Shown piece by piece: positions 53,953 through 58,460 of a DNA stretch of 64,000 nucleotides. The notes below the pieces were generated by a model that saw nothing but the letters and a program-made list of their open reading frames with translations, was not told where the DNA came from and searched no databases. The stretch's first letter is position 1. Every line of letters starts with the position of its first letter. The DNA lies in the IMG/VR virus record IMGVR_UViG_3300030041_000010. The stretch is one strand, 5' to 3'. The translations under genes and the position numbers were made by a program. The stretch is from a virus.

Positions 53953-54447
53953 TCAAGTCGATTGACATCTTAGCTCCTCGCGAATCGCCATCCACAACTT
54001 GCCCAACCAGTTCCGACCCTTACCGTCCTCACCCCAACCCCAGTAGCTATCCCGCCACGAGTCTTCAATCAATTCGCGGTTGCCGGTCGCCAGCAGCTTG
54101 CGGCGTACGTACTCATGCTGTGCTGCCTTGGCACGGAGGATGTTAGCCATGATGGGGAGTTTAACCATATCCCAGTCCGGCTTCCTGTGTTCCTTGTTTT
54201 TCTCGGCTATTTTGAACGCTTCATGAGCGGAGGGGGCTTGTACGAGAGCAAGCTGAATACCGACTAGTTGGAGTTGTTTAAACGGGGTATCGGCTGTGTA
54301 GTTAAACTTCTCCCAATGGTAGACCGCCTCAGAGGTATCGAAACGGATATTCTCCCACTTCAAGGTGAATGCAGAGAAGTTGGACAGAACATAGAAGTCC
54401 TGCTCGTAGAAGAACACCTGAGTGTCGGTGTCAAGCTTGTGGTTCAT
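53953..54447 (-). CDS. NADAR (YbiA-like) domain protein, an ADP-ribose processing or N-glycosidase family
   Basis: Motif 'VFFYEQDFYVLSNFS...FDTSEAVYHWEKF...LLATGNRELIEDSWRDSYWGWGEDGKGRNWLGKLWM'. Start set at 'MNHK', whose ATG overlaps the upstream stop. Confidence 0.75.
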   Translation of the reverse strand: MNHKLDTDTQVFFYEQDFYVLSNFSAFTLKWENIRFDTSEAVYHWEKFNYTADTPFKQLQLVGIQLALVQAPSAHEAFKIAEKNKEHRKPDWDMVKLPIMANILRAKAAQHEYVRRKLLATGNRELIEDSWRDSYWGWGEDGKGRNWLGKLWMAIREELRCQST

Positions 54448-54632
54448 TTTGCCCCTCGCAGTAGTGTCGTGTGGTTCTGTTGATAGAATTGTTGAAAACC
54501 CTTTGGGCCGGGGCATCTCATCCAATCCTGCATACTCTTATGTGTCCAGTCTTGCGTCTTCTTGCGAAAACGCATTGTCCTACCGCAGTCTTCGCACTTC
54601 TGTCTTATTTTGGCGTCGTTCATATAGCCCAT
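54444..54632 (-). CDS. Small zinc-ribbon-like protein (62 aa)
   Basis: Motif 'CEDCGRTMRF...RCPGP'. Confidence 0.4.
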   Translation of the reverse strand: MGYMNDAKIRQKCEDCGRTMRFRKKTQDWTHKSMQDWMRCPGPKGFQQFYQQNHTTLLRGAK

Positions 54633-54958
54633 CCATTGTCTTCGACGTTCTTGATGAACTTGTTCACAGCCTTGTCCATCGGTTCAAAGTAATCAGTCCC
54701 GTTTTGGTCAGGGTAATAGGTGTTCAGGAGAGCCCGAAGTTTACCTTTAGCCTCTTCCCACAGTATCCCTCGCATGGAAGTCAAGATACGGTCGTCGCTC
54801 ATTACTTTCTCCTTTGGGTCGGTGTCAATCTTACGATTCATCACCCTCTTGTTTTCCAAACTCCTTTTCGTAGAGTTTCCACACGCCGGAAGCTTCACAG
54901 TGGGAGAAGTAGTCACCGATGCCATGGTCTTCTCTCGGTCCGGGACACTTCTTTCCAC
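54620..54958 (-). CDS. Hypothetical protein (112 aa)
   Basis: ORF with no recognisable motif. Confidence 0.4.
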   Translation of the reverse strand: MERSVPDREKTMASVTTSPTVKLPACGNSTKRSLENKRVMNRKIDTDPKEKVMSDDRILTSMRGILWEEAKGKLRALLNTYYPDQNGTDYFEPMDKAVNKFIKNVEDNGWAI

Positions 54959-55012
54959 ACTGGGCGTGAATAGCGTCCAACAAAGCCCTCCTTCTTATTT
55001 CTTTGGCTTCCT

Positions 55013-55387
55013 TCATTCGTTGTCTCCATACTTACCGCCGGGACGATTCATCTCTTCGATGGATGCCCAGCACGAATTCTTTGGGTCAGTGACACGAGTA
55101 AAGGATTTAGCTCCAATAAGGGGGGCTGGTCTGGTATGATATGCCCATCCCTCAGAGCCATCGTACTCACTCCGGTCGAGCCACCAATCATCTCCAACAA
55201 TAACTAAATCGTTAGCAATCTCCTGACCGCCATAACCTGCGTCGTACTCAATGTCAGCGATGGCAGTAAACTCTTCCCATGTGATTTGGTACTCACCGTC
55301 ATAACTCCCAACCCATCTAATGGTATTGGGGGATTTCCCTTTGTATTCAAGGTAGTTTAGGGTTTCTTTGAGAAGATTCATGCTCAT
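55013..55387 (-). CDS. Hypothetical protein (124 aa)
   Basis: ORF whose stop and start overlap its neighbours. Confidence 0.5.
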   Translation of the reverse strand: MSMNLLKETLNYLEYKGKSPNTIRWVGSYDGEYQITWEEFTAIADIEYDAGYGGQEIANDLVIVGDDWWLDRSEYDGSEGWAYHTRPAPLIGAKSFTRVTDPKNSCWASIEEMNRPGGKYGDNE

Positions 55388-55956
55388 CCTTCTTGATTTG
55401 TCAGGGCTAGAAAAGCTAACTTTGAGGCGTCTACATCCATGCTCTTAAGCAATCGAGCCCGTCTTAGGTTGCCCTCGGCCTGACGTTCTTTGTTCGTGAC
55501 GCAATCCTGTACTTCTTTTGAGTTATCCGCGACAAAGTACCCACTATTTGTGGAGCAGATGATGATCCCCTTTTCAATCCACCATGCCACAGCGGCACGA
55601 AATTGGCGACGAGTGCCATCGGAGTCTGGTTCATTTATCTGTGTGAGAATGTCCTTGGTAGTGACCACCAAAGACTTTCCGATGGAGAGGTACCGGGGGA
55701 TGGCTTCGACGTATGCCTTCCTGAGCTTCATACTGACAACCTGACCTGTTTCCTCATCGGTGTAGAGATACTCGATGTGATCCAAGTCGTCATCGGTAGC
55801 GAGGCGGAGTTTGTCGGCGGGTAGTATCCGAAACTCTTTTTTGTCTTTGCTATTGGTCGGGTGTACTTTGTGACGCCCTTCTACCTTGTAGTCGGTCTCT
55901 ACAATAGTACACAAGAGGTTCTCGGGAATGTATACTGCCAAGTCTCCAGTGTTCAT
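55384..55956 (-). CDS. Hypothetical protein (about 190 aa from 'MNTGD')
   Basis: Start placed after the stop of the DUF4326-like gene. Confidence 0.45.
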   Translation of the reverse strand: MNTGDLAVYIPENLLCTIVETDYKVEGRHKVHPTNSKDKKEFRILPADKLRLATDDDLDHIEYLYTDEETGQVVSMKLRKAYVEAIPRYLSIGKSLVVTTKDILTQINEPDSDGTRRQFRAAVAWWIEKGIIICSTNSGYFVADNSKEVQDCVTNKERQAEGNLRRARLLKSMDVDASKLAFLALTNQEG

Positions 55957-55958
55957 AC

Positions 55959-56857: not shown

Positions 56858-57062
56858 CAGGGCTCACTACAGTGCTACGCCACGGGCGACCGGCAGCAAT
56901 CCAACGCTCCCGCAATTGAGCATGGTATACAACGGCGGGTTCCGGCCCTACATCATTGTAGCCGAACTGAATCCCACACTGAGGGCAGATTTCATGCAAC
57001 CCTTCAGCAGGATCAAGTTTCAGGCGGTCATAGTCACAGACAGGACATACCTTATATATCAT
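56844..57062 (-). CDS. Small zinc-ribbon protein (72 aa)
   Basis: Motif 'CPVCDY...CPQCG'. Confidence 0.45.
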   Translation of the reverse strand: MIYKVCPVCDYDRLKLDPAEGLHEICPQCGIQFGYNDVGPEPAVVYHAQLRERWIAAGRPWRSTVVSPDDRC

Positions 57063-57150
57063 TGTTCTTCCGCGCTATCTGAATCTGTTCCCATGCTTCA
57101 TCCGCAAGACCACGGGCAGCTATGACAATGAACGTACGCCATCATGCCTC

Positions 57151-57351
57151 CTAAAAGAATACTTCTATAGTACCACTATTCGATCCGCCAGTGCCACTAC
57201 CTTCCGACCCCGCCCCAGCCCATCTGCAAGGACTGTAACGTTTTCCACAGTCACAAAGGCATTTCCAAACTACTTTTCTTCCTCTGTTTGGCCGTCCATT
57301 AACAATAGTGAGTCTTCCGACTCTTTGTCTTGTTCGGTCTTTGAACGCCAT
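57151..57351 (-). CDS. Short ORF carrying one 'GRLTIV..GR..W.C.CDCG' zinc-ribbon repeat unit
   Basis: 'RVGRLTIVNGRPNRGRKVVWKCLCDCGKRY' belongs to the same family as the repeats in 11371..12801. It overlaps the 57270..57701 ORF in another frame. Confidence 0.4.
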   Translation of the reverse strand: MAFKDRTRQRVGRLTIVNGRPNRGRKVVWKCLCDCGKRYSPCRWAGAGSEGSGTGGSNSGTIEVFF

Positions 57352-57701
57352 ACAATGCCCATCTCTTTAAGTAAGTCTCTATCTTGCATTGTAATGGTAT
57401 ACAAACCTACACACCTACGACAATTGCATTTGAAGTTAAGAGGATGTGTTTGAGTCCTAACATCTCGTACTCGGCGGGTTCGGCTGAACTTACGTATCAT
57501 ATCGTCTCCTCTTTCCGTAGGGATTTCAAATCGCTTGTTGAGGGGGAACATGCCCGATTCGACTAGCTGTTTGTGCTCAGTTTTCAGAACACTGAGACGA
57601 GCCATAGCCTCTTCTCGGCTTATCAGATCAAGTGAGAAGTCTTCGTATAGCCGGGAGATTTTTCGTATGTATTCGGCGAACGGTTCCTCTTGAGGCTCCA
57701 T
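57270..57701 (-). CDS. Hypothetical protein (143 aa)
   Basis: Its 3' end overlaps the 57151..57351 frame. Confidence 0.4.
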   Translation of the reverse strand: MEPQEEPFAEYIRKISRLYEDFSLDLISREEAMARLSVLKTEHKQLVESGMFPLNKRFEIPTERGDDMIRKFSRTRRVRDVRTQTHPLNFKCNCRRCVGLYTITMQDRDLLKEMGIVWRSKTEQDKESEDSLLLMDGQTEEEK

Positions 57702-57734
57702 ACCTATAAATACCCCCTAACAAGGGATGGGTAT

Positions 57735-58460
57735 CTAAGTTTCTGTGGCTCTGACGATGTTGACCAGTTTTACATTTTCATCAAGAATTAGATAAGATGC
57801 GACATCGCCAACCCAGCACCCAGCGTTCCAATACTCCACACCGTCACGATACTCGTGGTAGGGGCTGTGAGTATGGCCGCAAAACACATAGTCAGCTTTG
57901 AGTCCCTTGGCGACACTAATAGCTCCATCCGCGACTTTGAAAGTCAGTCGTTGATATTTTGTGTGAAGTTTATCCAGAATTGTTGGTAGCCAGCGTTTCA
58001 GGAGGTTTCTTTTCTGAAGCCAGATATGCAGCCCCGTTACAAAGTCGTTGAACCAAGGATTGCCATTAGCGAATAAGGCGTCGAACTGATGACCATGCAT
58101 GGCGACACACGTATTGCCGTTCCAGCCCCACGTGTATTGTTGATATACAGGGACACCAAGGAGGTGCTCCATGACTTCAGTTACCCCGGCATCGTGGTTG
58201 CCTTCTACCCACACGACTTCAATCTCTCGCTTAGGGTTGGACAGTTCTCGAATAAGAGAGATGACTTGCCAGTGTTCACTGGTCAGGCGACTGAAGTTTA
58301 GGTCGGAGAAAATGTCTCCGAGGAGAATGATACGCTTGACTTTTATTACACCAAGGTAAATCTGATTGAGCAGGTTTGTGAGTTCCCTAGCCATAGCTAG
58401 AGGTGAACCGAGATGGACATCGGAGATTACAAGAGTGTCATAGACAGTCTCTAAGCGCAT
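57735..58460 (-). CDS. Calcineurin-like metallophosphoesterase (241 aa)
   Basis: Motifs 'ISDVHLG', 'LLGDIFSD', 'VEGNHD' and 'FCGHTHSPYH'. Confidence 0.85.
   Translation of the reverse strand: MRLETVYDTLVISDVHLGSPLAMARELTNLLNQIYLGVIKVKRIILLGDIFSDLNFSRLTSEHWQVISLIRELSNPKREIEVVWVEGNHDAGVTEVMEHLLGVPVYQQYTWGWNGNTCVAMHGHQFDALFANGNPWFNDFVTGLHIWLQKRNLLKRWLPTILDKLHTKYQRLTFKVADGAISVAKGLKADYVFCGHTHSPYHEYRDGVEYWNAGCWVGDVASYLILDENVKLVNIVRATET

What the first reader, a model, noticed from the sequence alone, without database searches (positions are those of the whole stretch)
53953..58460. An ADP-ribose processing toolkit encoded alongside the ART array: NADAR, a DUF4326-like protein and two metallophosphoesterases
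Several genes with known or suspected ADP-ribose functions sit in the accessory block. NADAR (53953..54447) belongs to a family that hydrolyses ADP-ribose from guanine bases and acts as the antitoxin partner of DarT-like DNA ADP-ribosyltransferases. Next to it is a DUF4326-like 'GCWC.P..CHGD' protein (55959..56252), and two calcineurin-like phosphoesterases lie at 57735..58460 and 44486..46117; that fold includes ADP-ribose/CDP-alcohol diphosphatases. In a genome that carries about 22 ART-like domains, these could protect the phage's own DNA or proteins from its effectors. They could reverse host ART-based defences, which would be anti-defence. They could also recycle ADP-ribose.
Basis: partly seen in the sequence, partly recalled or inferred. 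Interest (0 to 1): 0.7.

Follow-up and report, generated by a model that had tools for sequence, protein, structure and literature searches.

The report
Phage NADAR–DUF4326 pair, unrelated phosphoesterases
A soil phage that probably infects Acidobacteria carries a real NADAR enzyme and a DUF4326 partner, a pairing already described in phages, but the two metallophosphoesterases grouped with them show no specific link to ADP-ribose, so there is no four-gene toolkit.

Summary
All four genes exist at the stated coordinates and have intact catalytic motifs. NADAR (53953-54447) is a full-length YbiA-type NADAR. DUF4326 (55959-56252) keeps every family-invariant residue. In four related phage groups DUF4326 and NADAR lie next to or near each other just upstream of an SNF2 helicase. 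In other phage lineages they are adjacent in either gene order. Iyer, Aravind and colleagues described this association in 2021-22, and phage NADARs are known to counter DarTG1 (AdfN, 2025).

The closest cultured relative, Tunturiibacter phage Tunturi_5, has ART-PolyVal proteins but no NADAR, DUF4326 or LpxH-like gene. This weakens the self-protection idea. This is a new member of a known kind, of modest interest.

The parts
53953..54447 (-). NADAR gene (164 aa), YbiA-type: a predicted N-glycosidase / ADP-ribosyl-base glycohydrolase
   Evidence: PF08719 at 2.8e-27 across profile positions 1-163. TIGR02464 scores 94 bits against a cut-off of 73.7. Best PDB relative is E. coli YbiA 2b3w at 6.8e-18; the P. 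nicotianae NADAR 8bau scores 1e-6. E40, W92, E128, D133 and W136 are conserved in at least 98% of 65 viral homologues and K47 in at least 70%. These correspond to E43, K50, W89, E125, D130 and W133 of the ADPr co-crystal structure (PMC11543638).
55959..56252 (-). DUF4326 gene (97 aa): an uncharacterised enzyme with conserved cysteines, assigned in the literature to the rhodanese-phosphatase superfamily
   Evidence: PF14216 at 1.5e-25 and phrog_464 at 1.2e-32. The family-invariant residues R18, N30, P31, K67, C71, C73, C79 and H80 are all present. The gene is adjacent to NADAR in relatives L001-L004 and L065.
54620..55956 (-). Three small ORFs of unknown function (54620-54958, 55013-55387, 55384-55956) inserted between DUF4326 and NADAR in this phage
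   Evidence: They are absent from L001-L004 and L065, where DUF4326 and NADAR are 60-100 bp apart. They match only PHROGs of unknown function (phrog_3972, phrog_2113). The ATG at 55956 lies 2 nt after the DUF4326 stop codon (gene calls of the near-identical contig L247).
57735..58460 (-). LpxH-like metallophosphoesterase (241 aa): a host-derived accessory gene, not shown to belong to the NADAR/DUF4326 pair
44486..46117 (+). 543-aa phage metallophosphoesterase of the 'exonuclease' type, with a possible N-terminal DNA-binding region. It is a neighbour of the polyvalent ART module, not of NADAR
   Evidence: phrog_704 at 1.4e-55 and phrog_284 at 1.4e-27. Homologues occur in 1731 phage records, the best being Tunturi_5 gp270 'DNA repair exonuclease' at 45% identity. 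The metallophosphoesterase motifs are invariant in the family. It lies divergent from InPase, SprT and the polyvalent protein in L247, L250, L251, L252 and Tunturi_5.
24199..24522 (-). cREC_REC domain (residues 3405-3512 of the 4168-aa polyvalent protein): the ADP-ribose or cyclic-phosphate processing domain physically fused to the ART array
   Evidence: PF20274 at 1.6e-15. Relatives carry NUDIX or 2H (2_5_RNA_ligase2) domains in the equivalent polyvalent proteins.

Best explanation
The real feature is a two-gene accessory pair: DUF4326 and a YbiA-type NADAR. It sits in a variable slot of the replication-gene block, just upstream of an SNF2 helicase, in a phage that probably infects Acidobacteria.

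Shown: both assignments, intact active-site residues, and recurrent adjacency of the two genes in several phage lineages.

Inferred from family biochemistry: NADAR cleaves the N-glycosidic bond between ADP-ribose and a base. Every NADAR subtype tested so far removes ADP-ribose from guanine in DNA. During infection the enzyme would therefore strip ADP-ribose that host DarT1-like or other ART toxins put on replicating phage DNA. That makes it an AdfN-like counter-defence.

Inferred from published domain fusions only: DUF4326 acts on a phosphate-bearing ribose or ADP-ribose product, or on the modified DNA itself.

The two metallophosphoesterases are separate matters. The 241-aa protein is an LpxH-like nucleotide-diphosphate-sugar-type hydrolase captured from the Terriglobia host lineage, where its partner is a GT2 glycosyltransferase. 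The 543-aa protein is a widespread phage 'exonuclease' phosphoesterase that travels with the virion-packaged polyvalent ART, InPase and SprT module.
For: The NADAR and DUF4326 profile matches and conserved residues are.

For synteny, DUF4326-NADAR-SNF2 is conserved in L001-L004 and L065. The same genes occur with insertions in the window and in L066.

DUF4326 lies within 10 kb of NADAR in 11 of 64 NADAR-bearing viral loci. In L010/L011 and L014/L028 it is immediately downstream of NADAR, and in L001-L004 and L043 immediately upstream, so both gene orders occur.

The slot is empty in Tunturi_5 and L250, and NADAR alone is missing in the contigs that carry P0009. The pair therefore behaves as accessory cargo.

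From the literature: all four NADAR subtypes tested, including YbiA and T4 gp30.3, hydrolyse ADPr-guanine (PMC11125620). Phage NADARs from three unrelated groups neutralise DarTG1 (PMC11825919). DUF4326 is fused to NADAR, Macro and SLOG domains in DNA viruses (PMC9503650, PMC7824862).

The phosphoesterase conclusions rest.
Against: There is no biochemistry for this protein. It is YbiA-type, and E. coli YbiA and T4 gp30.3 did not rescue DarT1 toxicity in cells (PMC11125620).

The reverse test is weak. Only 1 of 80 DUF4326-bearing viral loci has a NADAR within 5 kb. DUF4326's usual immediate neighbours are replication, recombination and methylase genes. Co-location in a replication block could therefore explain part of the adjacency.

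Whether the host lineage has DarT-like toxins was not tested.

The LpxH-like gene lies 1-1.5 kb upstream of DUF4326 in four relatives, so a functional link cannot be fully excluded. LpxH chemistry, which is pyrophosphate cleavage in a nucleoside-diphosphate-X substrate, is the same bond type as in ADP-ribose.
Confidence: 0.5

Rival explanations
1. NADAR and DUF4326 degrade small ADP-ribose-derived molecules rather than DNA adducts. Candidates are cADPR-type immune signals, ADPr-1''-phosphate and ADPr>P. NADAR would cut N-glycosidic bonds and DUF4326 would remove terminal ribose phosphates. They might work downstream of the Tpt1-like and cREC domains of the polyvalent protein.
For: This is the explicit prediction of PMC9503650 for phage NADAR and DUF4326. 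The window's polyvalent protein carries a cREC_REC domain (1.6e-15) and a weak Tpt1/KptA-like stretch (1.1e-4). Relatives carry 2H and NUDIX domains in the same proteins.
Against: No NADAR has been shown to act on such small molecules, whereas activity on ADPr-guanine DNA is demonstrated (PMC11125620, PMC11825919). The genes lie in the replication block, not with the virion-packaged effectors. The Tpt1 hit is below Pfam's threshold.
Confidence: 0.2
2. There is no ADP-ribose module at all. NADAR is a YbiA-type metabolite-damage N-glycosidase acting on riboflavin-pathway intermediates. DUF4326 is a replication- or DNA-modification-associated enzyme. The two simply share an accessory-gene hot spot.
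For: The protein passes the NCBIfam model named 'riboflavin biosynthesis intermediates N-glycosidase' (94 bits against 73.7), and its nearest solved relative is YbiA. 79 of 80 DUF4326 loci lack a nearby NADAR, and their neighbours are mostly replication, recombination or methylase genes. The slot also accepts unrelated cargo: three ORFs here and an orf58438 homologue in L066.
Against: The window searches turned up no riboflavin gene near it. YbiA-type enzymes, including E. coli YbiA itself, hydrolyse ADPr-guanine (PMC11125620). Adjacency of the two genes recurs in both gene orders in several lineages, and fusions of the two domains are reported (PMC9503650).
Confidence: 0.17
3. NADAR, DUF4326 and both metallophosphoesterases cooperate to remove and break down ADP-ribose, mainly to protect the phage from its own ART array.
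For: All four are intact enzymes. The 241-aa gene lies 1-1.5 kb from DUF4326 in four relatives. The 543-aa gene is consistently next to the ART-bearing polyvalent module. LpxH-type enzymes cleave a nucleoside-diphosphate linkage.
Against: The LpxH-like family pairs with a GT2 gene in 51 of 80 host genomes and in phage L067/L068. The ADPRibase-Mn-like fold ranks 39th. No phosphoesterase homologue occurs in 64 NADAR neighbourhoods. The genes are gained and lost independently. The 543-aa family is present in 1731 phages, including 44-kb Drexlerviridae. Tunturi_5 has ART-PolyVal proteins without NADAR, DUF4326 or the LpxH-like gene.
Confidence: 0.06

Closest known systems
AdfN, phage orphan NADAR anti-DarT factors (T4 gp30.3, Bas32, Bas60; PMC11825919)
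   Same: It is a stand-alone phage-encoded NADAR in an early/replication gene region. It keeps the NADAR ADP-ribose-binding and catalytic residues. The family activity is removal of ADP-ribose from guanine in DNA.
   Different: It is YbiA-type, with Glu at the signature position. T4-type phage NADARs have His there and DarG1-type have Asp (PMC11543638). It is at most 36.5% identical to any NADAR in 50,697 phage records. Its host is probably Acidobacteria. It is paired with DUF4326. No activity or phenotype has been tested.
E. coli YbiA / YbiA family of the NADAR superfamily (PDB 2b3w; TIGR02464)
   Same: YbiA is the best solved relative (6.8e-18). The protein has the same length and core without extensions, has Glu at the signature position, and passes the NCBIfam model.
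   Different: It is phage-encoded, with no riboflavin or LexA-operon context. YbiA's accepted cellular role in riboflavin-intermediate clean-up has no evident use here.
Viral DUF4326 (rhodanese-phosphatase clade) linked to NADAR, Macro and SLOG, as described by Iyer, Burroughs, Aravind and colleagues (PMC7824862, PMC9503650)
   Same: It matches the same Pfam family and conserves the C-x-C...C-H motif. It lies in the same genomic neighbourhood as a NADAR, as those papers describe.
   Different: Here the two are separate genes rather than a fusion, and this phage has three ORFs inserted between them. My neighbourhood survey shows that most viral DUF4326 genes are not near a NADAR.
LpxH, UDP-2,3-diacylglucosamine pyrophosphohydrolase (PDB 5b49, 5k8k, 6ph9)
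   Same: LpxH is the best structural match over the whole length, including the helical lid inserted into the metallophosphoesterase core. Metagenome and genome sources label relatives 'LpxH'.
   Different: It scores only 23 bits on the LpxH equivalog, against a cut-off of 134. The motif is GNHD here; from my own recollection of the LpxH literature, not checked with the tools, LpxH has GNRD. A sequence profile of the family does not reach LpxH in the PDB. The family partner is a GT2 gene, not lpx genes.
ADPRibase-Mn (ADP-ribose/CDP-alcohol diphosphatase; zebrafish homologue PDB 2nxf)
   Same: It shares the metallophosphoesterase fold and the general ability to cleave a pyrophosphate bond in a nucleoside-diphosphate-X substrate.

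Membership tests
NADAR superfamily (PF08719) | Full-length match to the family profile above the curated threshold | tested here: met
   96.4 bits against a cut-off of 35.1, covering profile positions 1-163 of 163.
NADAR superfamily (PF08719) | ADP-ribose-contacting and catalytic residues of the P. nicotianae co-crystal (E43, K50, W89, E125, D130, W133) | tested here: met
   The equivalents are E40, K47, W92, E128, D133 and W136, from the pairwise alignment to 8bau. Five are at least 98% conserved and K47 is at least 70% conserved among 65 viral homologues. R93 aligns with K96. An equivalent of R79 is not evident.
YbiA subfamily of NADAR | Glu at the signature position (Asp in the BC4488/DarG1 type, His in the T4 type), and a core fold without extension | tested here: met
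   The motif is 'LIEDSWRDSYWGWG' with E128. The protein is 164 aa, close to the 168-residue YbiA chain 2b3w. TIGR02464 is passed. The residue rule comes from PMC11543638.
DarG1 / DarT1-associated NADAR antitoxin (BC4488 subfamily) | Asp at the catalytic position, a basic N-terminal extension for ssDNA, and an adjacent DarT1 gene | tested here: not met
   The position holds Glu, not Asp. There is no N-terminal extension, since the profile match starts at residue 12. The only PADLOC hit is a weak one to candidate family PDC-M42C. No ART gene is adjacent, because the neighbours are small ORFs and an Endonuclease VII gene.
AdfN (functional class: phage NADAR that counters DarTG1) | Removes ADP-ribose from phage DNA and restores plaquing on DarTG1 hosts | not testable with these tools
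   This needs biochemistry and infection assays. Only the family precedent exists (PMC11825919).
DUF4326 (PF14216) | Profile match above threshold, plus the conserved R...NP...GK-x-L-x-C-x-C...C-H motif | tested here: met
   90 bits against a cut-off of 25. R18, N30, P31, K67, C71, C73, C79 and H80 are invariant in an 11-sequence alignment.
DUF4326 as an ADP-ribose phosphate-processing enzyme | Phosphatase activity on ribose-linked phosphates of ADP-ribose derivatives | not testable with these tools
   This is a prediction only (PMC9503650). No solved relative was found by sequence, and no experimental paper was found among the 8 that mention the family.
LpxH (UDP-2,3-diacylglucosamine diphosphatase) | Passes the equivalog model NF003743 | tested here: not met
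   23.4 bits against a cut-off of 134 for the window protein. The Terriglobia homologues either miss the model at E ≤ 0.001 or score about 23.5 bits.
LpxH (UDP-2,3-diacylglucosamine diphosphatase) | Metallophosphoesterase core with an inserted helical lid | tested here: met
ADPRibase-Mn-type ADP-ribose pyrophosphatase | Closest structural or sequence relatives are ADPRibase-Mn proteins | tested here: not met
Mre11/SbcD nuclease (considered for the 543-aa protein) | Profile similarity to SbcD or Mre11, and an adjacent Rad50/SbcC ATPase gene | tested here: not met
   There is no NCBIfam hit. The family profile finds no Mre11 or SbcD in the PDB at E ≤ 1. The downstream gene is a GNAT. Tunturi_5 has a separate SbcD-like gene, gp177. 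The PHROG label 'DNA repair exonuclease' is only an annotation.

The most novel reading that the evidence does not exclude
DUF4326 and the YbiA-type NADAR work as an obligate two-enzyme counter-defence that repairs ADP-ribosylated phage DNA. NADAR would remove the ADP-ribose. The cysteine enzyme DUF4326 would clear a phosphoribosyl or phosphate remnant that NADAR cannot remove. In this Acidobacteria phage clade the neighbouring LpxH-like phosphoesterase would have been re-purposed from host glycolipid metabolism to split the released ADP-ribose. This would give the first function for DUF4326 and a new substrate class for LpxH-like enzymes.
Probability: 0.1. Interest if true: 0.6.

Novelty: new member of a known kind. 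Interest (0 to 1): 0.3.

Why it matters
Phage NADARs were recently shown to defeat the DarTG1 defence. DUF4326 is a widespread viral domain with no experimental function. A compact, separately encoded DUF4326 and NADAR pair from a phage of poorly studied soil Acidobacteria is a convenient pair of proteins for testing whether the two enzymes cooperate.

The negative results also matter. They prevent two ordinary phosphoesterases from being annotated as ADP-ribose enzymes. They also show that in this phage clade the ADP-ribose-processing domains physically tied to the ART arrays are cREC, NUDIX and 2H domains fused inside the polyvalent proteins themselves.

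Tried and rejected
1. A DNA search of the region against 50,697 phage records found no match.
2. A single-sequence AlphaFold model of the 241-aa protein was too poor to use (pLDDT 51). I repeated it with a 48-sequence alignment.
3. Sequence profiles of the 241-aa family (A1), the 543-aa family (A2) and DUF4326 (A3) against PDB sequences gave nothing informative.
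4. Promoter and terminator scans of 53-62 kb were no better than shuffled sequence, so operon structure could not be inferred.
5. A pattern search for close viral relatives of the 241-aa protein found none. Relatives were instead reached through the protein database.
6. The search for relatives of the polyvalent protein returned 15 contigs, none shared with the NADAR-bearing contigs. Because that search is pattern-based and not exhaustive, I did not use it as evidence on co-occurrence.
7. PADLOC found no link to a defence system beyond a weak NADAR hit.
8. The 2023 rhodanese-phosphatase superfamily paper from the Aravind group could not be retrieved. The fold assignment for DUF4326 therefore rests on PMC9503650 alone.
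9. I rejected the reading that the 241-aa protein is a true LpxH or lipid A auxiliary gene. It fails the equivalog model, and its genomic partner is a GT2 gene, not lpx genes.

Full report
**What the window is.** The window comes from a tailed phage. It has a tail sheath gene (8-1411), a head protease (6205-7071) and a major capsid protein (10301-11308). It has no DNA-level relative among 50,697 deposited phage genomes. A near-identical 116-kb metagenomic contig exists (L247). The closest cultured relative by protein similarity is Tunturiibacter phage Tunturi_5, a 308.7-kb phage of a soil acidobacterium. It shares the 543-aa phosphoesterase at 45% identity and the SNF2 helicase at 60%. The host is therefore probably a member of the Acidobacteriota.

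**The ART array.** The ART context is real. The 4168-aa ORF (22228-34734, minus strand) matches ART-PolyVal at 4e-91 and cREC_REC at 1.6e-15. It also has weak PARP, DUF3990 and Tpt1-like stretches. The 1984-aa ORF has GNAT, SprT-like and ParB_N domains. Stand-alone InPase and SprT genes follow. A domain profile built from the protein itself finds 8 ART-PolyVal stretches. Fifteen 'YHGT'-type motifs occur across the two giant ORFs.

**The observation.** All four genes are present at the stated coordinates.
- NADAR (53953-54447, minus strand) matches PF08719 over the entire profile at 2.8e-27.
- DUF4326 (55959-56252, minus strand) matches PF14216 over the whole profile at 1.5e-25.
- The 241-aa protein (57735-58460, minus strand) matches Metallophos at 7e-12.
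- The 543-aa protein (44486-46117, plus strand) reaches Pfam only below threshold. It matches phrog_704 at 1.4e-55, and its family conserves the D-x-H, GD, GNHD, H and GH-x-H motifs.

**NADAR.**
- It passes the NCBIfam YbiA-type model TIGR02464 (94 bits against a cut-off of 73.7).
- Its best solved relative is E. coli YbiA (6.8e-18). The Phytophthora NADAR 8bau scores 1e-6.
- Using that alignment and the residue list of Schuller et al. (PMC11543638), the equivalents of E43, K50, W89, E125, D130 and W133 are E40, K47, W92, E128, D133 and W136. Five are at least 98% conserved among 65 viral homologues, and K47 is at least 70% conserved.
- The Glu at the signature position places it in the YbiA subfamily. 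The DarT1-associated subfamily has Asp there plus an N-terminal extension, and the T4 type has His.
- PADLOC gives no DarG-type hit.
- All NADAR subtypes tested so far, including YbiA and T4 gp30.3, remove ADP-ribose from guanine in DNA in vitro (PMC11125620). NADARs from three unrelated phage groups neutralise DarTG1 in vivo (PMC11825919).

**DUF4326.**
- It keeps every invariant residue of the family: R18, N30-P31, K67, C71, C73, C79 and H80.
- No solved relative is detectable by sequence.
- None of the eight papers that mention the family reports an experiment.
- The Aravind group assigns it to the rhodanese-phosphatase superfamily. They report fusions to NADAR, Macro and SLOG domains, and also to replication and restriction-modification components. 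They predict that it removes terminal phosphates from ribose in ADP-ribose derivatives (PMC7824862, PMC9503650).

**Linkage of NADAR and DUF4326.**
- In relatives L001-L004 (65-80% amino-acid identity) the order is orf56483-like, DUF4326, NADAR, SNF2, with DUF4326 and NADAR about 100 bp apart.
- L065 has the same arrangement.
- L066 has a large unrelated gene inserted between them. The window has three small ORFs there.
- Among 64 viral loci found through the NADAR, 11 carry a DUF4326 within 10 kb. It is immediately adjacent in several distinct groups, and both gene orders occur.
- The reverse test is much weaker. Only 1 of the 80 best DUF4326 viral loci has a NADAR within 5 kb. DUF4326's immediate neighbours are mostly ssDNA-binding, YqaJ, methylase, polymerase and SMC-like genes, with a single ADP-ribosylglycohydrolase and a single RNA-repair HAD.
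- The pairing is therefore real and recurrent but not obligate, and both genes live in replication-type neighbourhoods.
- The slot itself is variable. It is empty in Tunturi_5 and L250, and NADAR alone is missing in two ENA contigs.

**The 241-aa phosphoesterase.**
- With a 48-sequence alignment the AlphaFold2 model reaches pLDDT 88. It shows a metallophosphoesterase core with a helical lid.
- The top 25 Foldseek matches in the PDB are all LpxH.
- By sequence it is not a true LpxH: it scores 23 bits against a cut-off of 134.
- Thousands of homologues exist. Those at about 50% identity are chromosomal genes of Terriglobia and other Acidobacteriota.
- In 51 of 80 of those genomes a GT2 glycosyltransferase lies immediately downstream. 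A 243-kb phage contig keeps the same pair.
- Within the phage clade the gene lies 1-1.5 kb upstream of DUF4326 in the window, L065, L066 and two ENA contigs. It is absent from L001-L004, which have both NADAR and DUF4326. It is present without either in L067.
- No homologue occurs in the 64 NADAR neighbourhoods.
- I conclude that it is a host-derived accessory gene whose family-level partner is a glycosyltransferase. ADP-ribose is not excluded as a substrate on chemical grounds, but nothing points to it.

**The 543-aa phosphoesterase.**
- It belongs to PHROGs labelled 'DNA repair exonuclease' or 'exonuclease'.
- It has homologues in 1731 phage records, including 44-kb Drexlerviridae.
- A family profile does not reach Mre11 or SbcD in the PDB. 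It gives weak homeodomain-like and HTH signals in the N-terminal third. Some relatives carry homing-endonuclease-associated repeats.
- Its conserved position is next to the polyvalent ART, SprT and InPase module and divergent from it. This holds in the window, L247, L250, L251, L252 and Tunturi_5.
- That is a genuine association with the ART-bearing effector module within this clade. It could be inherited synteny, and the wider family lacks that context.

- I fetched the whole Tunturi_5 genome and searched it with profiles.
- It has three large proteins with ART-PolyVal-like domains, all annotated NUDIX, plus a separate ART toxin gene. It also has the 543-aa homologue.
- It has no NADAR, DUF4326 or LpxH-like homologue.
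- L250 likewise has an ART-PolyVal plus NUDIX polyvalent protein and nothing recognisable in the NADAR slot.
- Phages of this clade that deploy ART arrays therefore do not need NADAR or DUF4326. This weakens the self-protection idea.
- The ADP-ribose-processing domains that do travel with the ARTs are fused into the polyvalent proteins: cREC here, and NUDIX and 2H in relatives.
- Counter-defence has the best precedent. Recycling is untested.

**Verdict.** The finding is half right. It identifies a genuine NADAR and DUF4326 pair, a kind of module already described bioinformatically. One half of that module already has an experimentally shown role in phages. The two phosphoesterases should be dropped from the toolkit. 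This is a new member of a known kind, in an unusual host lineage and next to an unusually large ART array. I score interest at 0.3.

Noticed in passing
window 22228-43419 (- strand): The giant polyvalent ORFs (4168 aa, 213 aa, 273 aa, 497 aa and 1984 aa) overlap end to start. The last 'VYHGT' ART-like motif of the 1984-aa ORF is cut off 38 residues before its stop codon. Near-identical contigs L248 and L249 call one 452-aa gene where this window and L247 have two genes. This suggests frameshift variation, or a larger single polyprotein.
   Followed up: partly
window 58438-60102 (- strand): This 554-aa ORF matches nothing in Pfam, NCBIfam, PHROGs or PADLOC. It carries repeated 'WPE[GAF]EK'-like motifs and overlaps the start of the LpxH-like gene by 23 nt. 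Its homologue (61% identity) sits between DUF4326 and NADAR in relative L066, so it is mobile cargo of the same hot spot.
   Followed up: partly
window 51296-51856 and 53522-53794 (- strand); 11371-12801 (+ strand): Two Endonuclease VII-domain genes flank the SNF2 helicase. An HNH homing-endonuclease-like gene sits beside the major capsid gene. These look like mobile nuclease genes scattered through the genome.
   Followed up: no
L069-L150 (Acidobacteriota genomes); L067/L068: The LpxH-like phosphoesterase and a GT2 glycosyltransferase form a conserved, often overlapping, gene pair in Terriglobia chromosomes (51 of 80 loci). A 243-kb phage contig carries the same pair. The pair's function is unknown, and the phosphoesterase fails the true LpxH model.
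   Followed up: partly
window 43446-46575; L151, L247, L250-L252: A small conserved block accompanies the polyvalent ART protein across distant relatives: stand-alone SprT, stand-alone InPase, then the divergently transcribed 543-aa phosphoesterase, often followed by a GNAT gene. In L252 the InPase is fused to a RelA/SpoT domain.
   Followed up: partly
Tunturiibacter phage Tunturi_5 (PP885688.1; L151, L255-L261): The proteins annotated 'MutT/NUDIX hydrolase' (gp225, gp273, gp321; 1260-1490 aa) contain ART-PolyVal-like domains, so they are polyvalent effector proteins. The genome also encodes nicotinamide phosphoribosyltransferase and an ART toxin, but no NADAR or DUF4326.
   Followed up: partly
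window 56483-56857 (- strand): This 124-aa ORF (phrog_5928) is conserved next to the SNF2 helicase even in Tunturi_5, where it is annotated 'primosomal protein' (37% identity). It marks the conserved edge of the slot into which DUF4326 and NADAR are inserted.
   Followed up: no
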